A stretch of DNA of 64,000 nt from a virus, in the IMG/VR virus record IMGVR_UViG_3300047678_000276, positions 1 to 64,000 of that record. One strand, written 5' to 3'. How positions within the stretch are numbered: position 1 is the first letter of the stretch; each line of letters begins with the position of its first letter. The position numbers were made by a program, and so were the translations under genes. The notes under the pieces are model-generated. The model saw only the letters and a program-made list of their open reading frames with translations, was not told the origin of the DNA and searched no databases. This document shows, one piece after another, positions 7,261 through 53,255 of this stretch.

Positions 7261-7346
7261 GTTTGTTTGTTTTATATTAGAATAGAAAATAATTAGGGAG
7301 AACTTAAAAAAAAGAGGGAGAATTTTCATCCCCCTCTTTTATATCT

Positions 7347-8297
7347 TTAAAGAGCCAATAACATTTCAGTTGCCTTGCTTGCAATCTTTGTGCTCTCACC
7401 TTCAATCAAGTTAACGAACTTTGAAGTTTGGCTTCTGTAGTTCTTCTCATGATCTAAGTAGTGAGTGATACCATTAATAACACCCCAAGCAGTTCCAAGA
7501 ATGTTTTCTTGACCAACACCTTCGCCATAAGAGCGCATAACAGCCTCATGGATGTTCTTCATGCGAGTACTATCTTCTTTCTCACTTTTAAATAACTCCT
7601 CAACCAGAGCCTTTACTTGTGTATCAGTAACCACTTTCTTTGCAAGCACATTGAAGCATTGATTTAATTCTTCAGTGTATTTGTGAGCAATCCCAAGAAC
7701 ATTGTGAGCTTCTTCAAGCTTCACCATAACGCTTGAACTGTGGCGTACAGCAACTTTGCTGATGGTATCTTTCAATGCCATGTTTAAAGTATTATTGCAT
7801 ACAACTCTCACAGGAGTAACAGCTGCAATAATTGATCCGCTTCCATCGTGTGATGAAGTAAGAAGTACATATACTTCTGTCAAGTCATCTGTCCCTGCGA
7901 TGCGAATCATGTCAGGCATTTTTGCTGTGATAAAGATACGTTCACCTTTACCTAGAACTCCTGCAGTTTCATACATTGCGTAGTCTGCACCTACGATTGA
8001 ATCAAAGAAACCGAATGCTTCTTTATTCTGAACGATTGTATAACCTTTACCCAAACGTCCGCCTAATATGTCCCCTGTATCAGTTCTATGAACCGAGAAC
8101 GAACCAGGTGATTCAACAAACTTTCCGTCTATTAAGGCGTAGTTTGGAACTTTGGCCACCTCATAATCGAGGTTTGCGAGTTTGATAGCTTCTTCAGCTG
8201 TCATTGCGCCGTTGACGATCTGACCTAGACCGTGCCATGCTTTTTGAGTGCTTGCGAATGAAGCGACTCCTTTTCTGATTTCGATGTTGTGTGCCAT
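7347..8297 (-). CDS. DUF932-family phage/plasmid protein
   Basis: AWHGLG, ETAGVL, SHDGSGS, PVRVVCNNTL motifs. Confidence 0.9.
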   Translation of the reverse strand: MAHNIEIRKGVASFASTQKAWHGLGQIVNGAMTAEEAIKLANLDYEVAKVPNYALIDGKFVESPGSFSVHRTDTGDILGGRLGKGYTIVQNKEAFGFFDSIVGADYAMYETAGVLGKGERIFITAKMPDMIRIAGTDDLTEVYVLLTSSHDGSGSIIAAVTPVRVVCNNTLNMALKDTISKVAVRHSSSVMVKLEEAHNVLGIAHKYTEELNQCFNVLAKKVVTDTQVKALVEELFKSEKEDSTRMKNIHEAVMRSYGEGVGQENILGTAWGVINGITHYLDHEKNYRSQTSKFVNLIEGESTKIASKATEMLLAL

Positions 8298-8383
8298 TTT
8301 CTCTTTTTTTATTTGGTTTATATTATGATAGAATTAAAACTCTTGGAAACTTAAAAACTTTTTTTGGAGTTTTATTGCAATAA

Positions 8384-8412
8384 TTATACGGATGAGGAAC
8401 AGAAAAGTTACA
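8384..8412 (-). promoter_or_regulatory. class II (ECF-like) promoter
   Basis: TGTAAC-N16-CGTATAA, in tandem with a class I motif upstream of DUF932. Confidence 0.75.
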
Positions 8413-8446
8413 GCTTCGCTCGGATAAATCCACAACAATAAACTTT

Positions 8447-8480
8447 TTAAGTTTTGATCAGGATGTTTCTATTGGTTGGC
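8447..8480 (+). repeat. inverted variant class I motif
   Basis: TTAAGTT-N14-TCTAT-TGGTTG-GC facing a terminator hairpin at about 8501-8534. Confidence 0.75.
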
Positions 8481-8535
8481 GCTATAGGAAAAATACGGCA
8501 AAAAAAAGAGGAGACTATTTCTAATCTCCTCTTTG

Positions 8536-8609
8536 TGGACCAGCCTGGGCTCGAACCAGGGACCCTCAGATTATGAGTCTGATGCTCTAACCAACTGAGC
8601 TACAAGTCC
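8536..8609 (-). tRNA. tRNA with CAT anticodon (Ile2 or elongator Met)
   Basis: cloverleaf GGACTTG...TCAGA-CTCATAA-TCTGA...GGTTCGAG...CTGGTCCA. Confidence 0.88.
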
Positions 8610-8745
8610 GATTGAAGGCCTGGACTTTACAAAAATAAGCGGAGTGTTTCATCACTACTCGTATCGTTGTACCTTCTGATTAACTTTATTTTTCTGATGC
8701 TAGGTGCAGCTTATTCACCTCTTGACCAGCGATATGGCTGATCTG

Positions 8746-8819
8746 TAGTCCCGATGCGATTCGAACGCATGGCCGCAGGTTTAGAAAACCTGTGCTCTAT
8801 CCAGCTGAGCTACGGAACC
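8746..8819 (-). tRNA. tRNA-Arg(TCT)
   Basis: CAGGT-TTTCTAA-ACCTG anticodon arm; D-loop CTGGATA; TTCGAAT T-loop. Confidence 0.9.
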
Positions 8820-8844
8820 ATATGATAAATATACGAAAAGTTTT

Positions 8845-9198
8845 TTAGATCAAACCACCGTCAAGTAATTTCTTTTCGAGTTTTTTAATTTGTTTTTCTC
8901 TGTTGGAGATATCTCTTTTAAATTTGTCATACTCCTCTTCTTCCATACCATCATGAAGCTCTGATTCAATGAGATAAATTTCTCTCTTGCCTTCTGCGAT
9001 TGTATTTAAAATCATTTCTCTCTCTGTGGCAACCGATTCTTTTTTGGTATCATATAAACCAGCAAGATATTTTTTGGCCTCGTCGATCATATCATGACTC
9101 CAAACCATATTATCGCTAACAATAACCTCTGCATCTATTGGCCACAAGCCAACTGATGGATCTCCAGGAGAATGTATAAAGAATGTAATTTTTGCCAT
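8845..9198 (-). CDS. hypothetical protein
   Basis: ORF, GDPSVG motif, coupled to upstream gene. Confidence 0.7.
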   Translation of the reverse strand: MAKITFFIHSPGDPSVGLWPIDAEVIVSDNMVWSHDMIDEAKKYLAGLYDTKKESVATEREMILNTIAEGKREIYLIESELHDGMEEEEYDKFKRDISNREKQIKKLEKKLLDGGLI

Positions 9199-9494
9199 TA
9201 TTTTATTTCGTCAAAGTAAAATGTTAAAACACGATTTTTTCCTGTTATTAAATTAGCGTATGTATCACCCATTTCAAATATAGCCCCTTTATTAATTAAA
9301 GTCTTTGCTCGTTTAAGTCGCTTAATAATAAGTGCATCATTAACCTCCGAGCGTTGTGCTGTGCTATATGATGATGTAACATATTCGCCACCGCATCCAC
9401 ATCTACAACCTTCTTTACCGCTATATACAGTTGAAATGTCTTTGATTGAAGCTTTTAAGAAATCTTCTTTTGATTTGATATTTGACGTTTTCAT
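9198..9494 (-). CDS. hypothetical protein (GCRCGCGG motif)
   Basis: ORF with both class I and class II (9540-9568) motifs upstream. Confidence 0.75.
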   Translation of the reverse strand: MKTSNIKSKEDFLKASIKDISTVYSGKEGCRCGCGGEYVTSSYSTAQRSEVNDALIIKRLKRAKTLINKGAIFEMGDTYANLITGKNRVLTFYFDEIK

Positions 9495-9574
9495 TTGCGT
9501 TTTATTTAATAGAAATAAAGTTCATAGGAACTTAAAAGATTATACGTTTAATTTCAGGAAATGTTACACCAGCG

Positions 9575-9665
9575 CAAAAGAAAAGCCCTAGGTGGCAACC
9601 CAGGGCTCTCTTAGACTTGGCAAAGTCTGCGTAAATATTAAACAAACGATTATAGCATTTACACT
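9575..9665 (-). ncRNA. putative small RNA from a class II promoter
   Basis: promoter 9669-9697, three hairpins, two with TTGCCA loops, last one followed by a T-run; no ORF. Confidence 0.55.
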
Positions 9666-9720
9666 ACATTATACGTTTGGCGTTTAAAAAAGTTACAACT
9701 TCGTTGGGATAAATCCACAA

Positions 9721-10374
9721 TTATTTTTGGCTCTTCTCCTTAATCTTGTCCCTAACAGCTGCAGCCCAAATCCATTCTTCATCCTGTTCAGCCTTAATTC
9801 TCTCAGCCTCAAGTTCTTCTAAGGTCATTGTGTCGAGCATTTCCTGTTTAGTTACTTGTTTTCCTTTAAACTCTTTTTGAGAATTTAACATGCTGGTTAG
9901 GAGTTTATTTCTTAATTCGTGTAATTCATTTAGGTTAGAAAAATCCCCTTTGAACATTGATTCTCCTGTTCCGCCGTTTGTTAGATCTATAATATTGATT
10001 GAACCTTTTATATCTTGTCCTGCTGGACCTGACATATTTCTCAGGAAATCTAGAGGAGAAGCTGGCATTGGTGATTTTGGTTTTAACAGAACAATAACAG
10101 CTTCGCCGATTGTTTGAAGCTTTTGTTTTATTTCTACAGATATAACTATAATGGCCATTAGAAATAATAAAGCTAAGCCCCCAGTAAGTTCCACAGCATC
10201 TATTGCTTGTAAGTCATAAGTGGTGAATAATGATTGGCCTAATTTAATTAATCCTGTTAGTGTAAAACCAACAGCTACAACAATCATTATTAGTATTGCT
10301 ATAGATTTAAAAAATAAGCTTATTTTACTGCCAGCAGTTTCTTTTTTTTCAGGAGCATCAAATTTTATATCCAT
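9721..10374 (-). CDS. membrane protein, 2 TM helices, UVR-like C-terminal helix
   Basis: two hydrophobic segments; C-terminal A-x-x-x-EEW-x-x-AA-x-x-RD; TATCTTTG upstream (10394-10401). Confidence 0.75.
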   Translation of the reverse strand: MDIKFDAPEKKETAGSKISLFFKSIAILIMIVVAVGFTLTGLIKLGQSLFTTYDLQAIDAVELTGGLALLFLMAIIVISVEIKQKLQTIGEAVIVLLKPKSPMPASPLDFLRNMSGPAGQDIKGSINIIDLTNGGTGESMFKGDFSNLNELHELRNKLLTSMLNSQKEFKGKQVTKQEMLDTMTLEELEAERIKAEQDEEWIWAAAVRDKIKEKSQK

Positions 10375-10427
10375 GGTTTAATGAGATTTTAAACAAAGAT
10401 AATAATTTAAAAATAAAAAAACAAGAA

Positions 10428-10685
10428 TTATTCTGCTTCGTCTTGAAGTTCGTTATACAGGTCCTGGATGTCTGATTTGATTTGTTTTACCTCATCATCA
10501 TCCCAGGTAACTTCATCTACATAAAACATTAGATCACTAGTTAACTGGAGAACTTCATCAATACTTTCAACACTCTCTATGTCCCTATAGATTGACTCTA
10601 ATGCGTCGTTTAATATTGGATCATCTATCCTAATACAAAGCTCAGAGATCTCATCAAAAATGTTTTTTGCTTCTTTTAGATTCAT
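10428..10685 (-). CDS. acidic helical hypothetical protein
   Basis: ORF downstream of the sigma gene. Confidence 0.7.
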   Translation of the reverse strand: MNLKEAKNIFDEISELCIRIDDPILNDALESIYRDIESVESIDEVLQLTSDLMFYVDEVTWDDDEVKQIKSDIQDLYNELQDEAE

Positions 10686-10767
10686 ATCAACAGTTGTTGA
10701 AATTTATTCTAAATAGAATGTAAAAAAACAAAACCTAGACTTTTGATCTAGGTTCGTTAATTATTCT

Positions 10768-11427
10768 TTATGAGTTGAAAGAGAAGTCAGGAGTTTTTCT
10801 CGTAATGAATTCCTGAATTTCTGCCCGTCCACGATTCACGTATGCTTTAATACTTCCTTTTGGTAAGCCCGTCATCTCAACAATTTTATCGTAATCCAAA
10901 TCCTCTAAGTAGCGTAATTTAATTACTTCACGAACAGTTTTGTTTTTGATTGATTCGATTGCGTTAAGAACCATTTCAGCACGCTCTTGTTTTACAATAT
11001 CAGCAAACCCATTGCCCATGTTTGATTTGTCCGCAATTTGGAAACTGAATGTGCTGTCATCTGTATTGTCTCCGTTTTTTACGTTAAGTTCTTCAATACT
11101 TAATACCTCATACTTTTCAGCACGTTTGTAATCAATTAAGCGATTGTTTGCGATTGTATAAATCCAAGTAGACAATGCCGCCTCATTTGGATTGTAAGAT
11201 TCGAAATTAAGATGAATCTTTGTAAAGATATCCATCATTAAATCTTTTGCCACTTCTGTGTTGTAGCGTACACCCATGGACATTTTTTGAAGAACTCCTG
11301 GTTTAAACTTTGCAAATAGCTTTGCAAATGCTGCTTGCTTTTCAGATTCAGAACCTGATTTTATAATTAATGCCAAGACTTTGTCTTGGTCAATTGCTGA
11401 TGTTACTTCTGCTTTTGCGTTTTTCAT
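10768..11427 (-). CDS. ECF-type sigma-70 family RNA polymerase sigma factor
   Basis: region 2 (AKDLMMDIF...STWIYTIANNRLIDYKR) and region 4 HTH (LRYLEDLDYDKIVEMTGLPKGSIKAYVNRGR). Confidence 0.92.
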   Translation of the reverse strand: MKNAKAEVTSAIDQDKVLALIIKSGSESEKQAAFAKLFAKFKPGVLQKMSMGVRYNTEVAKDLMMDIFTKIHLNFESYNPNEAALSTWIYTIANNRLIDYKRAEKYEVLSIEELNVKNGDNTDDSTFSFQIADKSNMGNGFADIVKQERAEMVLNAIESIKNKTVREVIKLRYLEDLDYDKIVEMTGLPKGSIKAYVNRGRAEIQEFITRKTPDFSFNS

Positions 11428-11449
11428 GTTATTTGCGTTTTAGATTATG

Positions 11450-11478
11450 TTATACGTTAATAGATTCAAAAAGTTACA
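11450..11478 (-). promoter_or_regulatory. class II promoter in front of the sigma gene
   Basis: TGTAAC-N16-CGTATAA. Confidence 0.78.
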
Positions 11479-11482
11479 AAAC

Positions 11483-11788
11483 TTAAAAACTATTTTTTCC
11501 TTTCGGCGTTGGATCTACTTTCGGCCCAGGAACATTCCAGGGACTATCCTCATCAGGATCCTGTTGCGGGATAATTTCAGGTTTTGGCACAGTACTGGGA
11601 CCTGGTTTAACCAGCGGCTCTGGAGCAACCAACGGTTCAAAGCTCGTTTTAAATTTAAACTGTTTTAGATTTAAAAACCCCTTTTTTGTTTCACTGGTTA
11701 CTGGTGAAATCACTGGAGCTGCCAGCAGCTTTATTCTATTTTTTCTCATTTTAAATTTAAACTGTTTTAGATTTAAATTACCTTCCAT
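11483..11788 (-). CDS. Pro-rich hypothetical protein with internal duplication
   Basis: LNLKQFKFK twice, from a 29-bp direct repeat at 11647-11675 and 11749-11777. Confidence 0.55.
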   Translation of the reverse strand: MEGNLNLKQFKFKMRKNRIKLLAAPVISPVTSETKKGFLNLKQFKFKTSFEPLVAPEPLVKPGPSTVPKPEIIPQQDPDEDSPWNVPGPKVDPTPKGKNSF

Positions 11789-11798
11789 ACCTGCAGCT

Positions 11799-12722
11799 TT
11801 ATCTTGGCGGCTTTCTAGTTAATAATTGTATTTGGTCATCTACAACATCTTTAATGTCTTGGTTATATTTTATTCTAATTAATTTAATTTTATGTTTTTT
11901 ACAAAATTTAGTTTTAAATTTATCATTCTTTTGTGTTGTTTTAAAACCTTCTTCTCCACCAAACCAATCGACAATTTTATAATGTTGTTCCCCATCAAAT
12001 TCTATACACACATTAAGTGTTGGTAAATAAAAATCAAATGGTAAATAATTTTTTATTTTACACTGACCAAATGTTTTCTGTGTCTCAAATATAATGTTAT
12101 TTTTCGAAAGTATATTAGCTATTTCTCGCTCTCCTTTAGATTCTCTACATCTACCACATCCTTTTCCAGCCCAGTGTGCGTTTGGAGTTTGTTTAAATTC
12201 GCCATGTTCAGGGCAAAGAATAACAACCTGATCTCTACTATGTTTATATTCCACTAAAGAATAATCATATTTATTACCATGTATGTTTTTAGCTTTTTTA
12301 ATAAATTCAAAAGTATTATATGTTTTTTTGTTTGAGGTTGTTTCTATTCCGCACAAAAAACAACCATTGCTATTCATATGCCTATCAGGTGTTTGTTCAA
12401 ATTCGCCATGTTTTGAGCATATGATTTTTACTTTATTAAAAACTCCAGCATAGTTTACTAAAGAATAATTGTATCTGTTGTTATGTATTTTATTAGCTCT
12501 GTTAATAAACTCTATTGTATTCATTTTATAACCAGAACATGCTGGGCATTTTCTTCCTTTAAAGTGTTTACAAGGAGGAATCCAAAAACTCCCATGCACA
12601 GGACAAATTATTTCTACCAATTGTTGATTATCCTTATATTCAACTTTTGAGTAATCGTATGTTTCACCATGTACTATTACACTTTTATTAATAAATTCTT
12701 CTTTAGTTAATTTTTTTGGCAT
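11799..12722 (-). CDS. homing-endonuclease-like protein (repeated C-x-x-HG Zn modules + Vsr/DUF559-like nuclease)
   Basis: 3x YDYS-x-V-x-Y...CPxHG repeats; FDFYLP...IEFDGEQH; TATTTATA upstream. Confidence 0.85.
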   Translation of the reverse strand: MPKKLTKEEFINKSVIVHGETYDYSKVEYKDNQQLVEIICPVHGSFWIPPCKHFKGRKCPACSGYKMNTIEFINRANKIHNNRYNYSLVNYAGVFNKVKIICSKHGEFEQTPDRHMNSNGCFLCGIETTSNKKTYNTFEFIKKAKNIHGNKYDYSLVEYKHSRDQVVILCPEHGEFKQTPNAHWAGKGCGRCRESKGEREIANILSKNNIIFETQKTFGQCKIKNYLPFDFYLPTLNVCIEFDGEQHYKIVDWFGGEEGFKTTQKNDKFKTKFCKKHKIKLIRIKYNQDIKDVVDDQIQLLTRKPPR

Positions 12723-12770
12723 ATTATTTATTATAAATATACAAAAAATTTATTAAAATGAAGAATGGCA

Positions 12771-13835
12771 TTATATTATTTTATAGTAAATTGCTTTTTC
12801 TCTACCTTTTGCCTTGTCATTAATTATAGTTCTAAATAAATCAGTAAGTTCAGAATAAGATAATTTAGTTATTTGCAATATTGCATTAGGTATGAGATGG
12901 CTATCTATGTGTAATACATCTAATAAATCAACCCACAACGTCGGCGACAACAAGTAGTGATAGAATTCATGTTGGTAATTATCCGCCTTGCTATAGTAAT
13001 ACGCCAGCTCTTCTTTAGAATAATGCTTTGGTATACTGTGACAGATCAGATAATCAATAACTCCTTTATTCACCTCATGTAGAAGTGCAGGAAAATTTAT
13101 AGCCTTACAAAGAACGGTTGCTTGAGGTTTTCCAGGCTGGTCAAATTTTATTTCATTAAACCCCTGTGTTAATTGTTGCCCATTTTCAATTGCATTTTGA
13201 ATTCCTTCAGGGTTCATCATCCAAAATTGGAAATTGATTCCTGCTGTGAACTCATCATATAATTCCACCAGCTGTGGATTCATCTCATCCAGTTTATCTT
13301 TGACCAGGTAGTAAACTCCTTTCCAAATATGCATTGAGGATCCATGAACCAGCCCGTTTAAAATAACACGCTTTTGAATCTCATCTCTCATGGTGTTCTT
13401 TTGCTCCAGGCTGAGTTCTAAGAACGGTTCAGGATTATTATCTTGTTCTGTATCTAAATGAATCCTGGGCTCAATGAACGCCTTTAAATCGACATGTTCA
13501 GGAACATCATAAAGGTCTCTGATTATTTCAACTGCTAGGCTCTGGAGATCTGCAACAAATGGTTTCTCTTTTCTGGAGATATATTCGAACAGGCCCATAA
13601 CTTTTAAAAGAACGTCGGAGGGTTTAATCTCATCTCCGAATCGGCGCTGGAATAAATCACAAACTGATTTAAATTCTTGTCCAGCCAGGTATTCAGGTTT
13701 ATAGCTGTATACATTATTTGCATCCAAGGAAAATAGTTTAGCATCTAGTTTCTTTATTATTCCCCTGTTTGGAGTATAAGGAAGATTCTGGATTGTCTTA
13801 GAGAATTCTTTATTGCCTATGTCTATTTTTGCCAT
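12771..13835 (-). CDS. conserved large-phage hypothetical protein
   Basis: long ORF; FPALLHE-x-x-KG motif; TATCTTTG upstream (13841-13848). Confidence 0.8.
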   Translation of the reverse strand: MAKIDIGNKEFSKTIQNLPYTPNRGIIKKLDAKLFSLDANNVYSYKPEYLAGQEFKSVCDLFQRRFGDEIKPSDVLLKVMGLFEYISRKEKPFVADLQSLAVEIIRDLYDVPEHVDLKAFIEPRIHLDTEQDNNPEPFLELSLEQKNTMRDEIQKRVILNGLVHGSSMHIWKGVYYLVKDKLDEMNPQLVELYDEFTAGINFQFWMMNPEGIQNAIENGQQLTQGFNEIKFDQPGKPQATVLCKAINFPALLHEVNKGVIDYLICHSIPKHYSKEELAYYYSKADNYQHEFYHYLLSPTLWVDLLDVLHIDSHLIPNAILQITKLSYSELTDLFRTIINDKAKGREKAIYYKII

Positions 13836-13853
13836 TTCAGCAAAGATACGATT

Positions 13854-46785: not shown

Positions 46786-46787
46786 AA

Positions 46788-47030: not shown

Positions 47031-47081
47031 TTGATTTTGGTTTGTTGGTTTATATGAGAATAGAAAGAAAATGTCAGAAAC

Positions 47082-47294: not shown

Positions 47295-47297
47295 ATC

Positions 47298-47468: not shown

Positions 47469-47510
47469 GGTTGGTTGGTTTATATGAATAGAAACAAATG
47501 AAGGGAGAAC

Positions 47511-47831
47511 TTAAGATTTTCTTCTCCCTTTTTCAATAATTTTTGCAGTCAATTCCTTATCCTGATTAGGATTATAAGGGTCTGAAATTTCATAGATTGC
47601 AAGTCTGCACATCAAGGCATTTAATTGGTCATCATTTAATTCAGCAGCTCTCTGGCCCACCTCAAATAAAATGTCCCCAAATATCTGCAAAGGAATTCTT
47701 AATGCAAACCCCTCTTTTGAGTATTGTGCAATTTCTTTTAAAAGTCCAGGAGTGTTAACTCTCCACTGAAGTCCACTATCTTTTTCGACTTTGTCTTTGA
47801 ATTGTGCTTTTCGCTTAGGTTCTTTTGGCAT
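47511..47831 (-). CDS. hypothetical protein
   Basis: own promoter; stop in next motif. Confidence 0.75.
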   Translation of the reverse strand: MPKEPKRKAQFKDKVEKDSGLQWRVNTPGLLKEIAQYSKEGFALRIPLQIFGDILFEVGQRAAELNDDQLNALMCRLAIYEISDPYNPNQDKELTAKIIEKGRRKS

Positions 47832-47880
47832 GGTTGGTTGGTTTATATTAATAGAAAGGATTTAAGAGGAACTTAAAAAT

Positions 47881-48174
47881 TTACATATCCAAAAAGCTAA
47901 ATAAGCTTGGATGAATTTCTCTTGCTTGTTTTTCAGAAATGCGTTTGCACTTCTCTCTTAAATAATCATTATGAACCGACGTAGAACCAACGCCTGAGTT
48001 TCTTGTGTAAAATACTGCTCCAATGGCATCGTAATGAGCGCCATCTTTATTTATGCGCAATGTATCATCTAACACCGCAACAACGTTTCCTGAGTGATTT
48101 CCTGGATTCTTACGAGTCCCTTTATTTTTTTCAGTCTTATTTTCGTATTCTAAGAAAAATTTGATTCCGTTCAT
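47881..48174 (-). CDS. hypothetical protein (start corrected)
   Basis: own promoter. Confidence 0.75.
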   Translation of the reverse strand: MNGIKFFLEYENKTEKNKGTRKNPGNHSGNVVAVLDDTLRINKDGAHYDAIGAVFYTRNSGVGSTSVHNDYLREKCKRISEKQAREIHPSLFSFLDM

Positions 48175-48236
48175 GATTTCTTTGGTTGGTTGGTTATATT
48201 GGAATAGAAACAATTCAAGGGAGAACTTAAAAACTC

Positions 48237-48461
48237 CTATAAAGGAAATGCTTTAATGATTGCCTTAATTTCTTTTTTATAGCCCATCATAGCACACTTA
48301 ATAAAAAACTTACCATTCTCCTCTCTACCAAAACAAGTGCCTCCTAGTTGATTCATAATGATGTCATGAGCCTTTTGAGATACCTCAACTTGTGTATCAT
48401 ACTTCAACTTGAATGGTTGAGGGGTTATTTCGTTCATAAAATTTTGTCTTTCAATATCCAT
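48237..48461 (-). CDS. hypothetical protein
   Basis: own promoter. Confidence 0.72.
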   Translation of the reverse strand: MDIERQNFMNEITPQPFKLKYDTQVEVSQKAHDIIMNQLGGTCFGREENGKFFIKCAMMGYKKEIKAIIKAFPL

Positions 48462-48506
48462 GATTGGTTGGTTTTATAAATTAATAGAAAGATTATTGAT
48501 TGAAAC

Positions 48507-48863
48507 TTAATAACCCGTAACAATTATTCCTTGTCCTGATACTGATTGCTCACGTCCAAACGCATCCACAAAACGAATGAAGTTTGAACTTTGACTCAAA
48601 ATTGAGTCTGTTACAAATGTTTGGTGGTCGCCATAATTTATTACCTCGACTGTGTAAAACTTTTTGCCGTGCTTTTTTGAATTTGCATAAGTTACGCCAT
48701 TTAATGCGAACTTCGCCACAATAGCAATGATTGCTAATGCGAATACTACTTTAAACATTATTCCAAAATTATTCATAGTTTTTTTGTTTTTTTTAAACGC
48801 ATCATCAAACTCCTTATCAAAATTTTCGAATTCTTTATCGAATTTATCCCAGTCTGTGTGCAT
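48507..48863 (-). CDS. single-pass membrane protein
   Basis: one TM helix; stop in next motif. Confidence 0.75.
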   Translation of the reverse strand: MHTDWDKFDKEFENFDKEFDDAFKKNKKTMNNFGIMFKVVFALAIIAIVAKFALNGVTYANSKKHGKKFYTVEVINYGDHQTFVTDSILSQSSNFIRFVDAFGREQSVSGQGIIVTGY

Positions 48864-48918
48864 TTGGTTTAGTTTTGTTGGTTATATGAATAGAAACAAA
48901 TTGATTAAAACTTAAAAA

Positions 48919-49212
48919 TTATTCAGCCATTACATGAGCAAATAAAAACCCCTCTCTTTTCATTGTTCCATACAACTCACTCAATTCTTTTTTTTGCTCT
49001 AAACACTCCTTAATGATATTGTTATTGCTTGTTGCATAACTACGCTCCTCTAATTTTTTCATCATATTCTCAACATTCCATTCCAAGCAAATAAAAACCT
49101 CTCCCATCATAATAGACTTAACATCCATAAATGGTGCATTGTGTTTTACAAATTCAAATGTTGATTTTGAAACACGTACATTTATAAGTTTATATTCGCT
49201 GATTACTTTCAT
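48919..49212 (-). CDS. hypothetical protein
   Basis: own promoter. Confidence 0.72.
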   Translation of the reverse strand: MKVISEYKLINVRVSKSTFEFVKHNAPFMDVKSIMMGEVFICLEWNVENMMKKLEERSYATSNNNIIKECLEQKKELSELYGTMKREGFLFAHVMAE

Positions 49213-49271
49213 GGTTGGTTGGTTTATTGTAATAGAATCAAATCCAGTTAGAACTTAAAAAGTATTTGTTT

Positions 49272-49306
49272 TTAAGTTTGGCCCCCGAAACTTTCTATTG
49301 GTTAGC
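49272..49306 (+). repeat. inverted variant class I motif
   Basis: TTAAGTT-N15-TCTAT-TGGTTA-GC. Confidence 0.78.
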
Positions 49307-49386
49307 ACTTACAGATCCAGGATAAACAAAAGCGAGTCGGAACCACCCGACTCGCTACCTTTAGAAACCAAGAAACCAACTACACT

Positions 49387-49563
49387 TTATTTCCCCTTGC
49401 TCACCACTTTGTCAAGAATTTTGACGTGGTGAAAAATATGATGTTCTGACTTGCCATGCTCCGCCATGTGTTCTTCATAGTGAGTGCTTTCAGAGTCATT
49501 CATATACTCCAATACTTTTTTTAATGCTTTTATTTCTTTTGGTGTTAATGTGATTGTTTTCAT
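49387..49563 (-). CDS. 58-aa His-rich protein (predicted leaderless, not in ORF track)
   Basis: ATG 6 nt after TCTAT. Confidence 0.65.
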   Translation of the reverse strand: MKTITLTPKEIKALKKVLEYMNDSESTHYEEHMAEHGKSEHHIFHHVKILDKVVSKGK

Positions 49564-49592
49564 ATTGGTATAGAAAGATTATTGATTGAAAC

Positions 49593-50030
49593 TTAAAACT
49601 CATCTAACACATTTGTCATTTTAATGATATAATCAGAATGACACTCTGACACTTCAGTTATTGCCTTAATCAGAATACAATAGAACTTTTCATTATAAAA
49701 TTCCATTATGTTTTTTGGAAACTTTGAAGGCATGACATTATTAAGCATATCAGTTAATAACTTATGAGGTTTTCTATATTCGTTCAAATAATCTACTGGA
49801 CCCCAATGATAATTAATAGATATATTATATGGTTGAGTTTCATCAAAAATTATAAATACCCTTGCATCTATTGAAGAATTTTTTGGTACATAAGAAAATA
49901 CTCCATCTCCCTCTCCATACTCCATTGGATAGCCTGGATGAATGTGAGTACCCTCAAGTATATTAAGAGCATTTGAAATGTTCTTAAATAACTCTTTTGT
50001 TCTTGACTTTTCTAGTGTGGTTGTTTTCAT
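49593..50030 (-). CDS. hypothetical protein (predicted leaderless)
   Basis: ATG 6 nt after TCTAT; stop in next motif. Confidence 0.75.
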   Translation of the reverse strand: MKTTTLEKSRTKELFKNISNALNILEGTHIHPGYPMEYGEGDGVFSYVPKNSSIDARVFIIFDETQPYNISINYHWGPVDYLNEYRKPHKLLTDMLNNVMPSKFPKNIMEFYNEKFYCILIKAITEVSECHSDYIIKMTNVLDEF

Positions 50031-50058
50031 GTTTGAATAGAAAGGAAATGATCGAAAC

Positions 50059-50319
50059 TTAAAAATCTTTTGCAGTTACCAATTCCAATGCCATGTACAA
50101 TCCCAATGGCACATTGATTTGCATAACATCAACCGAGTTCATCATTTGGTCTGCAATCTTAACGCTATTGAAAAACTCAAACTTCATCTCCTTAATGTAT
50201 TTCAAACCTGTTTCAGTTACACCTGTTGCTTTTTCTCCTTCATCACCAACAAGCTGACGAATTGTTAAGAAATGGCTTAACTGTTCTTTTTTATGAATGA
50301 ATATCGAAACTGTGATCAT
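50059..50319 (-). CDS. hypothetical protein (predicted leaderless)
   Basis: ATG 6 nt after TCTAT; stop in next motif. Confidence 0.75.
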   Translation of the reverse strand: MITVSIFIHKKEQLSHFLTIRQLVGDEGEKATGVTETGLKYIKEMKFEFFNSVKIADQMMNSVDVMQINVPLGLYMALELVTAKDF

Positions 50320-50334
50320 ATGGTTATAGATAAT

Positions 50335-50613
50335 TTATTTGTTCAAACTTAAAAACTTCTCCTCATTCAATAAGTCAAACTTTCCTGTCCACCCTTTTAT
50401 CTTTGTCTCTCCCTCAGGATTACCAATGGCAATAATATCTTCGTTCTTAATGAACTCCCCAAGCGAATGATGCCCATAAAGAAAATGAACCAAAACTCTG
50501 TCCTCGTATACCTTTGTGATATTGGTAACTTGTATTTCAGTTGGCTCACCTCCGTGGTAATTAAATCCAAATGCGATAAAATCCCCTTCTTTTAAATCTG
50601 AAACTTTTTTCAT
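50335..50613 (-). CDS. hypothetical protein (start corrected)
   Basis: promoter plus AACCAACC leader. Confidence 0.75.
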   Translation of the reverse strand: MKKVSDLKEGDFIAFGFNYHGGEPTEIQVTNITKVYEDRVLVHFLYGHHSLGEFIKNEDIIAIGNPEGETKIKGWTGKFDLLNEEKFLSLNK

Positions 50614-50647
50614 TGTTGGTTGGTTTAAATGAATAGAAACAAAATGA

Positions 50648-50872
50648 TTAGAACTTAAAACTTTCAAAGTCAATTATTGTCCAATTAATTTCCCCGTTCT
50701 CCCAAGCCTCATTACCATCATTCTCAGCGTTCAGTATCTCTCTTGCTGAATCCATTAAGGCAGTCATCAAATCATCCTCAGAGGTGCTATCAGGCACTTC
50801 CACGTGATAAGGGTCAGTCCCTATGTATTCGCCGTTATGAACGAAACGTATATCTACTTTATAAACAATCAT
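50648..50872 (-). CDS. acidic hypothetical protein (start corrected)
   Basis: coupled to upstream small ORF. Confidence 0.68.
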   Translation of the reverse strand: MIVYKVDIRFVHNGEYIGTDPYHVEVPDSTSEDDLMTALMDSAREILNAENDGNEAWENGEINWTIIDFESFKF

Positions 50873-50873
50873 T

Positions 50874-51047
50874 TTATTTTTGTTTAATTGAGAATGGAAA
50901 CGCACCTTTGCCTTTTAAGCAACACACACGAATGAAAGACTTTGCTTTCTTGTCATCTCCACCGATGAACATTGTGTTTGTTCCGCCTGAATAGTTTGCT
51001 AAAACTCCGTAGTTGTTTGCTTGTTGAATGAATGCTAATTTTGACAT
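50874..51047 (-). CDS. 57-aa protein (not in ORF track)
   Basis: MSKLAFIQQANN...; own promoter. Confidence 0.62.
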   Translation of the reverse strand: MSKLAFIQQANNYGVLANYSGGTNTMFIGGDDKKAKSFIRVCCLKGKGAFPFSIKQK

Positions 51048-51108
51048 GGTTTATTTTTTTATGGTTTATAATTTAATAGAATGATTTTTGAGGGGAACTT
51101 AAAAAGAA

Positions 51109-51450
51109 TTATAATGAAGTTAGTTGACATTTTTCCCAATAAGTAGGTATAGACCTTTCTAATGTTTTCAAAAGTTCTTTACAAAATTTATCTCCCTTTT
51201 TTGCTTTAGACAACATAATAAAATGAGAATAGATAGCATTTCTAATAAGAGGGTTTAACTCTTTCATTTGCTCATCAGTTAAATGTTTAACATGAAAGTT
51301 CTCTATATTGTTTCTAACTGACAAAGCCAAACATTTTGCTACAAATTCTAATACGACTAATTCATCATCAGACAAAAGAGATAAATCGCTAAGCTTCTTT
51401 TTTGTTTTTGCTATATCTTTTTTAAGATTTTTTATGAAGTCTTTTGACAT
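51109..51450 (-). CDS. hypothetical protein
   Basis: own promoter; VRN-x-IE-x-FH...MKELN-x-x-IRNAIY...P-x-YWE. Confidence 0.78.
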   Translation of the reverse strand: MSKDFIKNLKKDIAKTKKKLSDLSLLSDDELVVLEFVAKCLALSVRNNIENFHVKHLTDEQMKELNPLIRNAIYSHFIMLSKAKKGDKFCKELLKTLERSIPTYWEKCQLTSL

Positions 51451-51503
51451 GGTTGGTTGGTTGGTTTAAATGAATAGAAAGAAAAATCCAGGAACTTAAA
51501 AAA

Positions 51504-51704
51504 TTATTTCTTAACCTCAACTCCCATAGATTTATAATACTCCTCACTCGTTAATGGCTTGGCATATGCTCTATGTTTGCAGTCAGGACACTCATAAGAA
51601 CCATGAAGTCCAATTCCAGCTTGCCACTCTCCAATGGTTGCATATCTTCCGCATCTGCATCGAGCGTGTGAGCTTGGCATTAAATTGTTGTTGTGTTTAC
51701 TCAT
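51504..51704 (-). CDS. small zinc-ribbon protein
   Basis: C-x-CG...CPDC. Confidence 0.7.
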   Translation of the reverse strand: MSKHNNNLMPSSHARCRCGRYATIGEWQAGIGLHGSYECPDCKHRAYAKPLTSEEYYKSMGVEVKK

Positions 51705-51802
51705 GGTTGGTTTGGTTTATCTATTGTAATAGAATAAAAAAAAGGGAAACTTAAAAAAATTTCCCTCTCCCAGATAAACAAAAATTTATAAACCCCTCTC
51801 CC

Positions 51803-52039
51803 TCAATTCTCAAACATTGGAACCGCCACATCAATAATAACAATATCACAATGATGGTCAACCAAATCATCTTGACGATAATTCACAATATCTCCCTCCA
51901 CAAGCCCATTATCATCCAAAACACTCCCTCCAATAGCAAACTTCTCCCCAGTCATAATATCCTTTAAAATGTGAGTTAAATCACTCCAGAGAAAATTAAT
52001 CTCTCCCTTTTTGGCTCTTAATAGAATTGCTTTTTTCAT
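51803..52039 (-). CDS. hypothetical protein
   Basis: own promoter. Confidence 0.7.
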   Translation of the reverse strand: MKKAILLRAKKGEINFLWSDLTHILKDIMTGEKFAIGGSVLDDNGLVEGDIVNYRQDDLVDHHCDIVIIDVAVPMFEN

Positions 52040-52293
52040 ATTGGTTGGTTTCTATTGTTATAGATAAATAACCCACCAAAACTTAAAAACTCTCCCTTTG
52101 CCATTTGCCCACCTTTTTGGATCTACACAAACTCCCACCAAAAGCGCTAACATATAGAAACAATAAGCCATAAACTTAAAAACTCTCCCCAATATAAAGT
52201 TATAAACATTCTGTCAACAAAAAAACCCCAAGCGATCTGCAAGGGGTTTTTAAAACTTAAAAAGAAAGGGGAATTTTAACTCCCCTCACTTTA

Positions 52294-52872
52294 TTAATCT
52301 TCGATGATGTAATTTGTACCTTTGAAAGTAAGTGCGATAATGTTTGTAAGTGTGATTGTTAAGCGAAAGAAATTATTTGCCTCGTCAACCAAACCACGAC
52401 CCGCTGTCTTTTTTTCAGCGAAGTAAGCAGGTGCAAACAAATTCTTTGCGATTGCATCCTCCTTAGAGATTTTTTTGCCTTCATTGTATAACCATACATT
52501 TACTTTTGCCTTTTTTTCTTGGTCGCATACCAAATACTCAACATTTGCATTTTTGTTCATAAAGGCTAAACAATTTGAGCCTTCAACAAAAGTCTTTCCA
52601 CTCATTTCCTGACTTTCAAAACCTACTTCATCCCCTTGCTTCTCTAAACGTGTATTAACACGATTTTCGTAATTAGAGCCGATTGTGATGTTTCTGAAAG
52701 TTAATTTTTGAAGTAAGCGTTTACCCTTTACTACACGACTGCCATATTCATCAGTGAACGCTACAATGTGAGCAAATGTTGTACCCTTGTGCTTTAATAA
52801 CATTTCACGTAATTCAGCAAGTGTAATTGTTTTTTGATTTTTTCTTTTACTTGTACGATTGATTTTAGCCAT
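52294..52872 (-). CDS. hypothetical protein (first gene of the leftward block)
   Basis: long ORF; tandem class I and class II (52974-53002) promoters. Confidence 0.82.
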   Translation of the reverse strand: MAKINRTSKRKNQKTITLAELREMLLKHKGTTFAHIVAFTDEYGSRVVKGKRLLQKLTFRNITIGSNYENRVNTRLEKQGDEVGFESQEMSGKTFVEGSNCLAFMNKNANVEYLVCDQEKKAKVNVWLYNEGKKISKEDAIAKNLFAPAYFAEKKTAGRGLVDEANNFFRLTITLTNIIALTFKGTNYIIED

Positions 52873-53044
52873 TTTTTCTTTTTTTTAAAGGTTTATATTG
52901 TTTGTTTATCTATTGTAATAGAACGTTATTTGTTTGAAACTTAAAAACTTTTTTGTTAACCTTATTGCAATAATTATACGAATTAGATACAAATAAGTTA
53001 CAAAGTAAATTGTTAAAATTTCAGATTGTCAATTAACGTGTTAT

Positions 53045-53235
53045 CTATTGTAATAGATATAAACCCACCCAAAACTTAAAAACTTTTCTTTTTAAGTTTC
53101 ACCCAAAAACTATCTATATGTTAGCACAAAAAAATAACCACATAATGATCAGCGCCAACATATAGAAACAAAAAACAATAAACTTAAAAACTCCTTTTTT
53201 TTAAGTTCATATAAAGATTATATCTATAACAATAG
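53045..53235. promoter_or_regulatory. divergence point with four class I motifs, two of them convergent variants
   Basis: motifs at about 53052(-), 53092-53125(+ variant), 53154-53187(- variant), 53201-53227(+). Confidence 0.75.
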
Positions 53236-53255
53236 AAACCAATCAAAACCAAAAT

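What the first reader, a model, noticed from the sequence alone, without database searches (positions are those of the whole stretch)
7282..53240. About 45-kb array of one-gene cassettes, each with its own copy of a novel bipartite promoter motif
Seen: TTAAGTT-N14/15-TCTAT precedes nearly every gene (about 85 leftward copies by hand count) and flips strand exactly where the genes flip (53201, 53566). It matches neither sigma70 TTGACA/TATAAT nor Bacteroidota TTTG/TAnnTTTG. Inference: it is the early promoter of a phage-specific, possibly virion-delivered, sigma factor or RNA polymerase. Each gene would be an autonomous expression unit that can be gained, lost or reordered without polarity, an integron-like outcome with no attC or integrase in view.
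Basis: partly seen in the sequence, partly recalled or inferred. Interest (0 to 1): 0.82.

Follow-up and report, generated by a model that had tools for sequence, protein, structure and literature searches.

The report
Hundred-copy ECF-type phage promoter array
A large uncultured freshwater phage, probably of Bacteroidota, puts the same near-invariant two-part promoter in front of about 85 small genes; the promoter looks like an alternative (ECF-type) sigma-factor site, and gene cassettes are gained and lost at its copies, much as described for T4-type phages.

Summary
TTAAGTT-N14/15-TCTAT occurs 99 times in the window against 0.07 expected, co-oriented with the genes. The full consensus is tttTTAAGTT-N14/15-tTCTAT-N6-R. 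The 7th base after TCTAT is a purine in 99/99 copies, and in 26-27 copies it is the A of the start ATG, so those mRNAs are predicted leaderless.

It is almost certainly a promoter of sigma-factor type. It has the same geometry as a second over-represented motif, TGTAAC-N16-CGTATAA (11 copies in the window, 0 expected), which matches the SigW-type ECF consensus.

The window encodes one ECF sigma (10768-11427). Its specificity residues (Lys at RpoE-171, Asn at RpoE-84) predict -31C/-12G. That is the second motif, not the array motif, which has -31G/-12C.

TAnnTTTG elements conserved upstream of three core genes point to a Bacteroidota host.

More than 120 freshwater metagenome contigs carry 1,018 further copies. 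Of 64 homology breakpoints against relatives, 51 lie within 40 nt of a motif copy (12 expected).

The cassette idea is already known as PeSLs of T4-type phages. The promoter type and its density are new. I found no RNA data. Other windows of this scan noted the same array.

The parts
1433..53592 (.). Full extent of the class E promoter motif tttTTAAGTT-N14/15-tTCTAT-N6-R(+1): 99 exact copies, 87 on the - strand and 12 on the +.
   Evidence: 99 copies against 0.07 expected. The positional profile shows the extra conserved T's and a purine at the 7th base after TCTAT in 99/99 copies.
19423..53227 (-). Dense hyperplastic part of the array: 83 small minus-strand genes (median 92 aa), 69 of them with their own exact E promoter. 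26-27 have the ATG exactly 6 nt after TCTAT and are predicted leaderless. The others have CA-rich leaders (AAACCAACCAACC) without a Shine-Dalgarno sequence.
   Evidence: Only 7 of 81 proteins have a Pfam hit (two DNA methylases, a ligase, GP88, WGR, two DUFs). Only about 10 genes are shared with relative G002.
7282..7307 (-). It lies upstream of the gene at 6877-7260.
53201..53227 (+). E promoter on the + strand at the point where the gene direction flips. It serves 53256-53552. A second one at 53566-53592 serves 53613-53801.
10768..11427 (-). Phage ECF-type (group 4) sigma factor, 219 aa. It is the only sigma gene in the 76-kb contig.
   Evidence: Pfam Sigma70_r2 33.7 bits and Sigma70_r4_2 33.4 bits, both above the cut-offs. 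TIGR02937 66.5 bits against a cut-off of 42.9; the best named model is SigW at 76 bits, below its equivalog cut-off. The best PDB matches are RpoE and SigW. Six-frame searches find no other sigma.
11450..11486 (-). Overlapping E and M promoters in front of the sigma gene (TTAAGTTTTGTAACTTTTTGAATCTATTAACGTATAA). The arrangement is conserved in the relatives L255 and G002.
5537..5565 (-). Example class M promoter, TGTAAC-N16-CGTATAA. The other exact copies in the window are at 543, 1369, 6497, 8384, 9540, 9669, 11450, 24289, 52974 (-) and 24638 (+, in front of the tRNA-Met/Glu cluster). Two more lie at contig positions 64301 and 69675.
   Evidence: 11 copies in the window against 0.00 expected; 13 in the contig. 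The consensus equals the SigW-type tGAAACnTTTt / CGTA (PMC5758882).
13841..13871 (-). Class H, host-type promoter TTTG-N19-TATCTTTG in front of the 354-aa core gene. Others lie at 4737-4768 (122-aa gene) and 10394-10424 (217-aa gene).
   Evidence: TAnnTTTG is kept in front of the orthologues in four or five divergent relatives while the 'nn' bases vary.
19462..19560 (+). Example of a gene-less, counter-oriented E promoter. The conserved transcribed start GCACTTAxAGATCC runs about 30-45 nt into a strong bidirectional terminator hairpin. Similar units lie at 8447, 29788, 36062, 42293, 46191 and 49272, and the copy at 53092 has the same start but sits in the right-hand convergent pair. The + copies from 19462 onward sit about 13 nt from a leftward copy. 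These units divide the array into blocks.
1433..1527 (.). Convergent pair of E promoters facing each other across 43 nt. A second pair lies at 53092-53187. The two pairs bracket the whole leftward region.
33505..33550 (-). Example of a terminator-promoter composite: a 16-bp stem whose loop is the TTAAGTT box, followed by a T run that is the promoter spacer. Similar composites lie at 51729, 39576, 26808, 42640, 40695, 32921, 25962, 47488, 44896 and 28644.
   Evidence: 22 copies have a stem of 5 bp or more and 18 of 6 bp or more, out of 99. The shuffled-flank control gives a mean of 11.8 and a maximum of 16.
54206..54215 (+). Example of class L (late-like), T-run + (A)TATTTATA(t/a)A. Others lie at 58785 and 63211 (+) and, in contig coordinates, at 65819, 65851, 66966, 68446 and 68472, in front of the genes right of the array.
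   Evidence: Enrichment is modest (14-21 hits against 8-10 in shuffles). The position just upstream of genes is the main argument.

Best explanation
The motif is the main promoter class (here 'E') of a roughly 185-kb uncultured freshwater phage whose host is probably a member of the Bacteroidota. It is a sigma-factor-type, two-block promoter. TTAAGTT is the -35 box (about -33 to -27) and TCTAT is the -10 box (-11 to -7). Transcription starts at the purine 7 nt after TCTAT, so about a quarter of the genes give leaderless mRNAs.

Its geometry and near-invariance are those of ECF (group 4) sigma promoters. It is a specificity variant of the phage's second promoter class 'M' (GTAACTT-N14-CGTAT), from which it differs at -35, at -31 (G instead of C) and at -13/-12 (TC instead of CG); -31 and -12 are the two positions that published work ties to single sigma residues.

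The ECF sigma encoded at 10768-11427 most likely reads class M, including its own gene. Class E is most likely read by host core RNA polymerase carrying a different phage-specified ECF-like sigma, which is not in the 76 kb at hand. That sigma could be encoded in the missing about 60% of the genome, and possibly delivered with the virion.

Because one 35-bp sequence is repeated about every 400 bp in one orientation, it also acts as portable homology. Recombination between copies adds, removes and moves promoter-plus-gene cassettes, which makes this region hyperplastic.

Shown: the motif, its coupling to genes, the sigma gene, the second motif, and the breakpoints.
For: Promoter:
- 99 copies against 0.07 expected, co-oriented with the genes and immediately upstream of them.
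- 85% of all TTAAGTT heptamers are followed by TCTAT at N14/15.
- The 7th base after TCTAT is a purine in 99/99 copies, and pyrimidine-purine in 78/99.
- The ATG is at exactly that position in 26-27 genes. That spike is not explained by anything except a fixed 5' end.

Sigma-type reader:
- Two blocks of 7 + 5 nt with a spacer that varies between 14 and 15: 38/61 in the contig and 170/848 in relatives, with only 4 at 16.
- ECF sigmas need near-consensus promoters and often autoregulate (Todor et al.).

Relation to class M:
- TGTAAC-N16-CGTATAA occurs 11 times in the window against 0.00 expected.
- It has the same block spacing when aligned as xTAAxTT-N14-xxTAT.
- It equals the SigW-type consensus (PMC5758882).
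- E and M are nested in front of the sigma gene in three divergent relatives.

Sigma assignment:
- The phage sigma aligns Lys194 to RpoE Arg171, where SigW also has Lys, and Asn95 to RpoE Asn84.
- Both residues are invariant in four orthologues that are only 32-35% identical overall.
- These positions set the -31 and -12 bases; Arg gives C, Tyr gives G, and Asn gives -12G (Todor et al.).
- No second sigma is found in 76 kb plus about 600 kb of relatives.

Host:
- TAnnTTTG is conserved in front of three core genes across relatives.
- The leaders lack a Shine-Dalgarno sequence.
- The E motif is not enriched in 401 Bacteroidota genomes.

Cassette turnover:
- The same motif occurs in G001 (17 copies), G002 (71 copies) and 120 freshwater metagenome loci (1,018 copies in 456 kb).
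- 51 of 64 homology breakpoints lie within 40 nt of a motif centre, against 12 expected and a maximum of 24 in 2,000 random draws.
- Only about 10 of about 95 array genes are shared with G002, and one is out of order.
Against: There are no transcript data at all, because no RNA run holds this DNA. The start site, the timing and the promoter activity itself are therefore unproven.

The E boxes lack the two ECF hallmarks: AAC in the -35 box and CGT in the -10 box. The 14/15 spacer is at or below the low end of the 15-18 nt window that Todor et al. searched.

The assignment of the encoded sigma to class M rests on two residues and on a published correlation (R2 about 0.5-0.6). Lys at position 171 was judged by analogy with SigW, not measured.

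The breakpoint test cannot separate 'recombination in the motif' from 'recombination anywhere in the very short intergenic gaps', because the gaps consist almost entirely of the motif.

Only 41% of the genome is available (CheckV estimate).
Confidence: 0.6

Rival explanations
1. The ECF sigma encoded in the window (10768-11427) itself reads the array motif. It is first made from the nested SigW-like M promoter, read by a host ECF sigma or by another factor, and then amplifies itself and switches on about 100 E promoters.
For: It is the only sigma found in 76 kb plus about 600 kb of relatives. Its gene carries an E promoter, conserved in relatives, as an autoregulated ECF gene would. E has ECF geometry.
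Against: Its residues at the RpoE-171 and RpoE-84 positions (Lys, Asn) are those of SigW and RpoE, which read -31C and -12G. E has -31G and -12C. Class M fits these residues exactly and also lies in front of the sigma gene. The sigma is only 32-35% identical between relatives, yet E is letter-for-letter the same in them.
Confidence: 0.17
2. The array motif is read by unmodified host machinery: a host ECF sigma released on infection, or host sigma-A helped by a phage activator bound to the TTTTTAAGTT box, as MotA/AsiA do at T4 middle promoters.
For: Bacteroidota carry about 22 ECF sigmas per genome (PMC7826278). T4 middle promoters also have a -30 box at slightly variable distance from the -10 box (general knowledge). 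No phage reader was found in the contig.
Against: The motif is not enriched in 401 sampled Bacteroidota genomes (42 hits against about 47 control hits, at most 3 per genome). It has no resemblance to TTTG/TAnnTTTG, while true host-type elements occur elsewhere in the same phage. Dependence of about 100 promoters on a normally sequestered host sigma would be fragile (inference).
Confidence: 0.12
3. The motif is the promoter of a phage-encoded or virion-packaged RNA polymerase that needs no sigma (T7-like, N4-like, crAss-like or phiKZ-like).
For: The near-invariant sequence and the conserved initially transcribed bases (ATAAA) recall phage polymerase promoters. 59% of the genome is unseen. About 8-12 proteins right of the array carry a shared N-terminal tag ending in (L/I)xE, which may mark packaged proteins.
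Against: The motif has two separated blocks and a spacer of 14 or 15 nt, in both the contig and its relatives. Known single-subunit polymerase promoters are one contiguous block of fixed register (general knowledge). Early transcripts made by the crAss-like virion polymerase show no common motif (10.1101/2020.03.07.982082). E is a four-base variant of an undoubted ECF promoter in the same genome.
Confidence: 0.07
4. The repeat is not a promoter. It is a recombination or mobility site, or an operator for a DNA-binding protein, that merely sits between genes.
For: Homology breakpoints cluster at the copies. Thirteen copies have no gene behind them, and some form convergent or divergent pairs.
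Against: The orientation follows the genes strictly. The distance to the ATG is fixed in 26-27 cases and there is a purine at the predicted start in 99/99 copies. The motif parallels an ECF promoter exactly. The contig has no integrase or attC-like element. The gene-less copies are followed by a conserved short transcribed segment and a terminator, that is, by small transcription units.
Confidence: 0.04

Closest known systems
PeSLs (promoter-early stem-loops) of T4-type phages such as RB49, phi1, PST and nt-1 (Arbiol et al. 2010, PMC2839356; Comeau et al. 2014, PMC4122927)
   Same: A strong, highly conserved promoter motif repeated in front of ORFan genes in hyperplastic regions. [quoted passage not shown] Some copies are fused to a stem-loop terminator that overlaps the -35 box. 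Indels and replacements between related phages are bounded by the motif.
   Different: PeSL promoters are perfect host sigma70 promoters, and there are about 50 per 170-kb genome. Here the promoter is non-host and ECF-like, with about 100 copies in 50 kb (one per about 400-500 bp). Only about a fifth of the copies carry a stem-loop, a quarter of the genes are predicted leaderless, and the phage is unrelated at sequence level to cultured phages. Mini-circles were not testable.
ECF (group 4) sigma promoters, especially the SigW type tGAAACnTTTt-N-CGTA (PMC5758882) and the RpoE type
   Same: A 7-nt -35 block and a 5-nt -10 block at a nearly fixed distance. Near-consensus copies throughout the regulon. 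Pyrimidine-purine at the start. A promoter in front of the sigma gene itself. Class M of this phage matches the SigW consensus almost letter for letter.
   Different: Class E has AAG instead of AAC in the -35 box and TCTAT instead of CGTAT or CGTC in the -10 box, with a 14/15-nt spacer. The regulon is about 100 promoters in a virus, and the cognate sigma is unidentified.
Temporal promoter cascades of large lytic phages (T4 early/middle/late; SPO1 gp28 and gp33/34). Recalled from general knowledge, not tested here.
   Same: Several promoter classes in one genome. Tandem or overlapping promoters of two classes in front of core genes. A phage-encoded sigma that replaces the host's.
   Different: In those phages the most numerous class, in front of the small early genes, is read by the host's primary sigma. 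Here the host-type (TAnnTTTG) promoters are few and the numerous class is a non-host type.
Integron gene cassettes
   Same: Single-gene units that are gained, lost and reordered within an array.
   Different: There is no integrase, no attC/attI and no common Pc promoter. Every unit brings its own promoter, and exchange would be by homologous recombination between promoter copies.

Membership tests
Sigma70-family, ECF-type promoter (class E motif) | Two conserved blocks (about 7 nt at -35, about 5 nt at -10) separated by a spacer of nearly fixed length that can vary by 1 nt | tested here: met
   TTAAGTT and TCTAT with a spacer of 14 (38 copies) or 15 (61 copies). In relatives the counts are 170 and 848, with 4 at 16.
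Sigma70-family, ECF-type promoter (class E motif) | AAC in the -35 block and CGT (or a flipped C at -10) in the -10 block | tested here: not met
   E has AAG and TCTAT. A C does sit at -10 if the start is the 7th base after TCTAT, but the canonical AAC and CGT are absent. Class M has both.
Sigma70-family, ECF-type promoter (class E motif) | Near-consensus copies throughout the regulon, and pyrimidine-purine at the start site | tested here: met
   99 exact matches over 12 fixed bases. 85% of TTAAGTT heptamers are coupled to TCTAT. Y-R in 78/99 copies and a purine in 99/99. The criterion comes from Todor et al..
Sigma70-family, ECF-type promoter (class E motif) | A cognate sigma factor that initiates from it | not testable with these tools
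   One ECF sigma is present, but its specificity residues fit class M. No transcription data are available.
ECF sigma factor (protein at 10768-11427) | Sigma region 2 and region 4 present, with regions 1.1 and 3 absent, in about 170-220 aa | tested here: met
   Pfam r2 at residues 56-105 and r4_2 at 164-203, both above the cut-offs, with no r3 or r1 hit, in 219 aa. TIGR02937 (sigma70-ECF) 66.5 bits against a cut-off of 42.9.
SigW equivalog (protein at 10768-11427) | Score above the curated equivalog cut-off | tested here: not met
   NF007223 scores 76 bits against a cut-off of 209, and TIGR02948 scores 68 against 243. The protein is SigW-like in its promoter and key residues, but it is not a SigW orthologue.
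PeSL-type regulatory cassettes of T4-type phages | A conserved promoter motif repeated upstream of ORFans and concentrated in a variable (hyperplastic) region | tested here: met
   69 of 83 array genes have their own copy. About 90% of the array proteins have no Pfam family. About 10 of 95 genes are shared with G002.
PeSL-type regulatory cassettes of T4-type phages | The promoter is identical to the host sigma70 consensus | tested here: not met
   E matches neither TTGACA/TATAAT nor the Bacteroidota TTTG/TAnnTTTG.
PeSL-type regulatory cassettes of T4-type phages | A stem-loop terminator joined to each promoter | tested here: inconclusive
   18-22 of 99 copies have a stem of 5-6 bp or more over the -35 box followed by a T run. 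The shuffled control gives 11.8. About 11 of them are striking, with stems of 8-16 bp.
PeSL-type regulatory cassettes of T4-type phages | Indel and replacement junctions between related phages lie at the motif | tested here: met
   51 of 64 breakpoints lie within 40 nt of a motif centre, against 12 expected and a maximum of 24. Caveat: the intergenic gaps are little more than the motif.
PeSL-type regulatory cassettes of T4-type phages | Excised mini-circles formed by recombination between neighbouring copies | not testable with these tools
   This needs PCR or long reads from phage DNA.
Integron | IntI integrase, attI, attC sites, and a shared Pc promoter | tested here: not met
   No integrase family appears among the proteins scanned. 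The repeat is a promoter-like motif, not an attC hairpin.
Bacteroidota sigma-A promoter | -33 TTTG and -7 TAnnTTTG | tested here: not met
   These elements are absent from E. They are present and conserved upstream of three other genes of the same phage.
Single-subunit phage RNA polymerase promoter (T7-like) | One contiguous block of about 20 bp in fixed register with the start site | tested here: not met
   There is a variable 14/15 spacer with an unconserved interior.

The most novel reading that the evidence does not exclude
Class E defines a new ECF-like promoter specificity (-35 TTAAGTT, -10 TCTAT). It would be read by an as yet unseen phage sigma, or a sigma substitute brought in with the virion or made from the few host-type promoters. 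About 100 genes per genome in a widespread clade of freshwater Bacteroidota phages would then sit under a private transcription channel, with a quarter of the messages leaderless. The promoter would also be the recombination module that drives cassette turnover.
Probability: 0.3. Interest if true: 0.75.

Novelty: new variant of a known kind. Interest (0 to 1): 0.6.

Why it matters
Transcription programmes of Bacteroidota phages are almost unknown outside the crAss-like group. This contig offers a readable four-class promoter system: host-type, E, SigW-like M and late-like.

The main class is a near-invariant, non-host, ECF-like promoter used about 100 times. If confirmed, it would give:
- a natural pair of closely related but orthogonal sigma/promoter specificities, which differ at -35, -31 and -13/-12, and -31 and -12 are the positions that published work identifies as specificity switches;
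- a case of widespread leaderless translation in a Bacteroidota system;
- an independent, non-T4 example of promoter copies acting as recombination modules for ORFan turnover. That would suggest the PeSL mechanism is general to large phages, not a T4 peculiarity.

Tried and rejected
- Cultured relatives: megablast of 10 kb against 50,697 phage records gave no match. tblastn of core proteins gave none or only distant scattered hits. No cultured relative is available to lean on.
- Literature: a search for the motif string returned only primer noise.
- RNA evidence: no RNA holder was listed for 40001-50000. The only full holders are two moss-metagenome DNA runs that may be the source.
Metagenome records could not be opened as handles.
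- Host from an auxiliary gene: a genome-contig scan with the 378-aa dehydrogenase gave only a probably mis-binned MAG contig and a distant Bacteroidales hit, which is uninformative.
- Candidate reader among host-promoted core genes: the 354-aa protein (12771-13835) gave a useless model from 4 sequences (pLDDT 40) and an excellent one from 65 (pLDDT 95.6). It has no Pfam or PDB sequence match and no Foldseek PDB match. It shows only a weak zincin/M32-carboxypeptidase/DUF885-like resemblance (Z 6.3-4) and no profile similarity to sigma. It is rejected as a sigma candidate on present evidence. The 217-aa neighbour looks like a membrane protein.
- Left of the array in relative G001 there is only a TnpB-like transposase and unknowns.
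- A weak r4_2 hint at 1931-2032 (E = 0.02) is not significant.
- An archaeal (TATA/BRE) reading of the motif was considered because of the leaderless genes. It was rejected because the phage encodes a bacterial sigma and a peptide deformylase.
- Complex prediction was not used, because no protein pair was in question.

Full report
**1. The observation**

TTAAGTT-N14/15-TCTAT occurs 99 times in the window, 87 on the minus strand and 12 on the plus strand. Dinucleotide-preserving shuffles give 0.07, with a maximum of 2.

The window is the first 64 kb of a 76,322-bp IMG/VR virus contig that CheckV rates at about 41% complete. The last 12 kb has no copy.

The two halves are tightly coupled. Of 117 TTAAGTT heptamers in the contig, 99 are followed by TCTAT at 14 or 15 nt.

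Anchored profiles extend the motif to tttTTAAGTT(y)(y)...tTCTAT-nnnnaT-A-t-A/G-A-A. The 7th base after TCTAT is A in 83 copies and G in 16, never a pyrimidine. The dinucleotide at -1/+1 is pyrimidine-purine in 78 of 99.

A simple gene call gives 100 minus-strand ORFs of 45 aa or more in the range. Of these, 78 have an exact copy within 130 nt upstream. In the dense part (19.4-53.2 kb) the figure is 69 of 83, with a median protein length of 92 aa.

In 26-27 genes the ATG begins exactly 6 nt after TCTAT, that is, at the invariant purine. The other genes have CA-rich leaders such as AAACCAACCAACCATG, without a Shine-Dalgarno sequence.

The two rightward copies at 53201 and 53566 serve the first two rightward genes. 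The observation therefore stands. The motif is longer, and slightly wider in extent (from 1433), than reported.

**2. What surrounds it**

Of 81 array proteins, only 7 have a Pfam family: two DNA methyltransferases, an ATP-dependent ligase, GP88, WGR and two DUFs. About a dozen have a PHROG.

Left of the dense array (4.3-19.4 kb) lies a block conserved in relatives. To the right (54-76 kb) lie genes for a GH64-like protein, kinases, NAD synthetase, peptide deformylase and others, with no copy of the motif. There are six tRNA genes.

The upstream regions of the genes that lack the motif reveal three more promoter-like classes.

- *Class M.* TGTAAC-N16-CGTATAA occurs 11 times in the window, against 0.00 in shuffles, and 13 times in the contig. 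It always has a 16-nt gap. It lies in front of core genes, the plus-strand tRNA cluster and a sigma gene. It equals the Bacillus SigW-type consensus tGAAACnTTTt / CGTA (PMC5758882).
- *Class H.* TTTG-N19/20-TAnnTTTG lies in front of the 122-aa, 217-aa and 354-aa core genes. The TAnnTTTG element is kept in front of the orthologues in four or five divergent relatives while the two free bases vary (TATC, TACA, TAAA, TAAG, TAAC). This is the -7 element of the Bacteroidota primary sigma (established knowledge), so the host is probably a member of the Bacteroidota.
- *Class L.* A T-run followed by (A)TATTTATA lies just upstream of many genes right of the array. Its enrichment is only modest.

**3. 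A sigma factor in the window**

The 219-aa product of 10768-11427 has sigma region 2 and region 4_2 above the Pfam cut-offs and nothing else. It passes the NCBIfam ECF superfamily model. It scores best, though far below equivalog level, with SigW. Its best solved relatives are RpoE and SigW.

Six-frame searches find no other sigma in the contig. A profile of the four orthologues finds no paralogue in about 600 kb of related DNA.

Its upstream region carries an E promoter with an M promoter nested 9-10 nt further downstream. G002 and L255 have the same arrangement.

**4. Which motif does this sigma read?**

Written as 7 + 5 blocks, M is GTAACTT-N14-CGTAT and E is TTAAGTT-N14/15-TCTAT. They have the same architecture. 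They differ at -35, at -31 (C against G) and at -13/-12 (CG against TC).

Todor et al. (bioRxiv 10.1101/2020.06.23.168245) showed that the residue at the RpoE-Arg171 position sets the -31 base: Arg gives C, Met gives T and Tyr gives G. They also showed that Asn at the RpoE-84 position goes with -12G.

HMMER alignments place the phage sigma's Lys194 at position 171, where SigW, which reads TGAAAC, also has Lys. They place Asn95 at position 84. Both residues are invariant in four orthologues that are only 32-35% identical overall.

The encoded sigma is thus predicted to read -31C/-12G, which is class M, and to autoregulate through it. Class E differs at exactly the specificity positions. This is what one expects of a sister specificity read by another ECF-like sigma.

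That second reader is not in the DNA at hand. This is the weakest link of the account, and it is inference.

**5. Why a sigma, and not a phage polymerase or the host**

- The spacer varies between 14 and 15 nt, both here (38/61) and in relatives (170/848, with 4 at 16). This is typical of two-domain sigma recognition and not of contiguous single-subunit polymerase promoters.
- Near-invariance is expected for ECF sigmas, which melt DNA poorly and need near-consensus sites.
- Early transcripts of the crAss-like Cellulophaga phage phi14:2, made by its virion polymerase, show no common motif. That system is therefore not a model.
- The motif is not a host signal. In 401 sampled Bacteroidota genomes it occurs 42 times, against about 47 for the reversed control, and never more than 3 times in one genome.

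**6. Relatives and cassette turnover**

Two IMG/VR contigs carry the same motif: G001 (30.8 kb, 17 copies) and G002 (33.6 kb, 71 copies).

Together they hold 1,018 exact E copies in 456 kb.

The 4-19 kb block is syntenic with G001 and G002 at 35-81% amino-acid identity. In the array only about 10 genes are shared with G002, mostly in order and one displaced.

Against relatives of 78% nucleotide identity or more, 64 distinct ends of homology fall in the array. Of these, 37 lie within 25 nt and 51 within 40 nt of a motif centre. Random positions give 7.8 and 12.1, with maxima of 17 and 24 in 2,000 draws.

The unit of gain and loss is thus promoter plus gene. The caveat is that the intergenic gaps are hardly longer than the motif, so the test cannot place the crossover inside the motif.

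**7. How autonomous are the units?**

- Twenty copies supply the TAA stop of the upstream gene.
- Only 18-22 copies have a stem-loop over the -35 box followed by a T run, against a control of 11.8. About eleven of them are striking, for example a 16-bp stem at 33505.
- About 14 array genes have no promoter of their own.
- Thirteen copies have no gene behind them, and 13 copies (partly the same ones) start with xGTTRGC. Eight of the latter point against the gene flow and start a conserved segment (GCACTTAxAGATCC...). In seven of these the segment runs 30-45 nt into a strong bidirectional terminator; six of the eight sit 13 nt from a leftward copy.
- These units cut the array into blocks.
- Convergent promoter pairs at 1433-1527 and 53092-53187 bracket the whole leftward region.

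Each gene therefore has its own start, but termination is organised by blocks.

**8. Comparison with what is known**

The closest described system is the PeSL (promoter-early stem-loop) of T4-type phages. There, about 50 strong sigma70 promoters per genome, each joined to a stem-loop, sit in front of ORFans in hyperplastic regions. They bound the indels between related phages and form mini-circles (PMC2839356, read; PMC4122927).

The present array shares the logic: a repeated promoter in front of ORFans, stop codons in the motif, some terminator composites, and breakpoints at copies. It differs in four ways:
- the promoter type is non-host and ECF-like;
- the density is about one per 400-500 bp;
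- stem-loops are scarce;
- many of the genes are predicted to be leaderless.

It is not an integron, since it has no integrase or attC.

My rating is a new variant of a known kind, found in a phage clade with no cultured relative.

**9. Limits**

- There is no transcript evidence; no RNA holder is listed.
- The host is inferred from promoter and leader features.
- Other first-stage notes on this genome describe the same array, the leaderless genes, the stop-codon overlap and the gene-less units. I re-derived these points from the sequence.

Noticed in passing
window 56814-64000, and contig to about 69200 (L009): At least six otherwise unrelated proteins begin with a shared tag of the form x(L/I)RK(I/L)(I/V)Rxx(I/L)xE, for example MNLRKIIRGILNES, MQSIRKIVRTTIKES, MSIRKLIRETLEN, MNPIRKIIREALERL, MDNKLRKIIREMIMAE and MSSKLRTKIRKILEEN. 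Several others carry LxExxxRMKKLAGL. The ending (L/I)xE resembles T4-type prohead-protease sites, so these may be capsid-targeted, injected proteins. All sit behind late-like ATATTTATA boxes.
   Followed up: partly
window 12771-13835 (-): This 354-aa core protein sits behind a host-type promoter. It belongs to a large uncharacterised family (913 representatives at E < 1e-3, some fused to longer proteins). The AlphaFold model has pLDDT 95.6 and no Foldseek match in the PDB. There is only a weak resemblance to M32-carboxypeptidase/DUF885-like zincins (Z 4-6.3), and a conserved HELxKG motif.
   Followed up: partly
window 8447-8530, 19462-19560, 29788-29880, 36062-36160, 42293-42400, 46191-46290, 49272-49360: These are counter-oriented, gene-less promoter copies. 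Each is followed by a conserved 5' segment (GCACTTAxAGATCC) and, 30-45 nt on, a strong bidirectional terminator. They could give 55-70-nt RNAs antisense to the 3' ends of the incoming genes, or act as insulators between blocks.
   Followed up: partly
window 1433-1527 and 53092-53187: Two pairs of E promoters face each other across 43-44 nt, so the two short transcripts would be fully complementary. The pairs bracket the whole leftward gene region.
   Followed up: no
window: 26 of the 99 motif copies, e.g. 22622-22648, 27756-27782, 34593-34619: The sub-motif CTCCC(T) directly follows TTAAGTT in about a quarter of the copies, and in about 28 of 71 in G002. Only some of these have the complementary GGGAG upstream to form a hairpin. 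The sub-motif does not correlate with spacer length or leader type, and its role is unexplained.
   Followed up: partly
window 24627-25186 (+): The plus-strand tRNA-Met and the two tRNA-Glu genes sit behind overlapping host-type (TATCTTTG) and class M promoters, inside the leftward array. Another first-stage note proposes a leader-peptide attenuator here; I did not examine it.
   Followed up: no
window 13854-14456 and 15409-16344 (-), and relatives: Several proteins start with MGQYY(K/F). These include the true start of the 13854 gene (201 aa in relatives) and the 311-aa phrog_12644 protein. This is a paralogous family within the core block.
   Followed up: no
L149 12521-13840 (G001): A TnpB/IS605-OrfB-like transposase (phrog_506, E = 3.5e-44) lies in the relative's motif-free region left of the array.
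   Followed up: no
window 16367-16393 (-) and 43796-43820 (-): These are variant promoter copies that the exact pattern misses: TTAAGTT-N15-TATAT in front of 15409-16344, and TTAAGTT-N13-TCTAT in front of 43484-43774. The true number of E promoters is therefore slightly above 99.
   Followed up: partly
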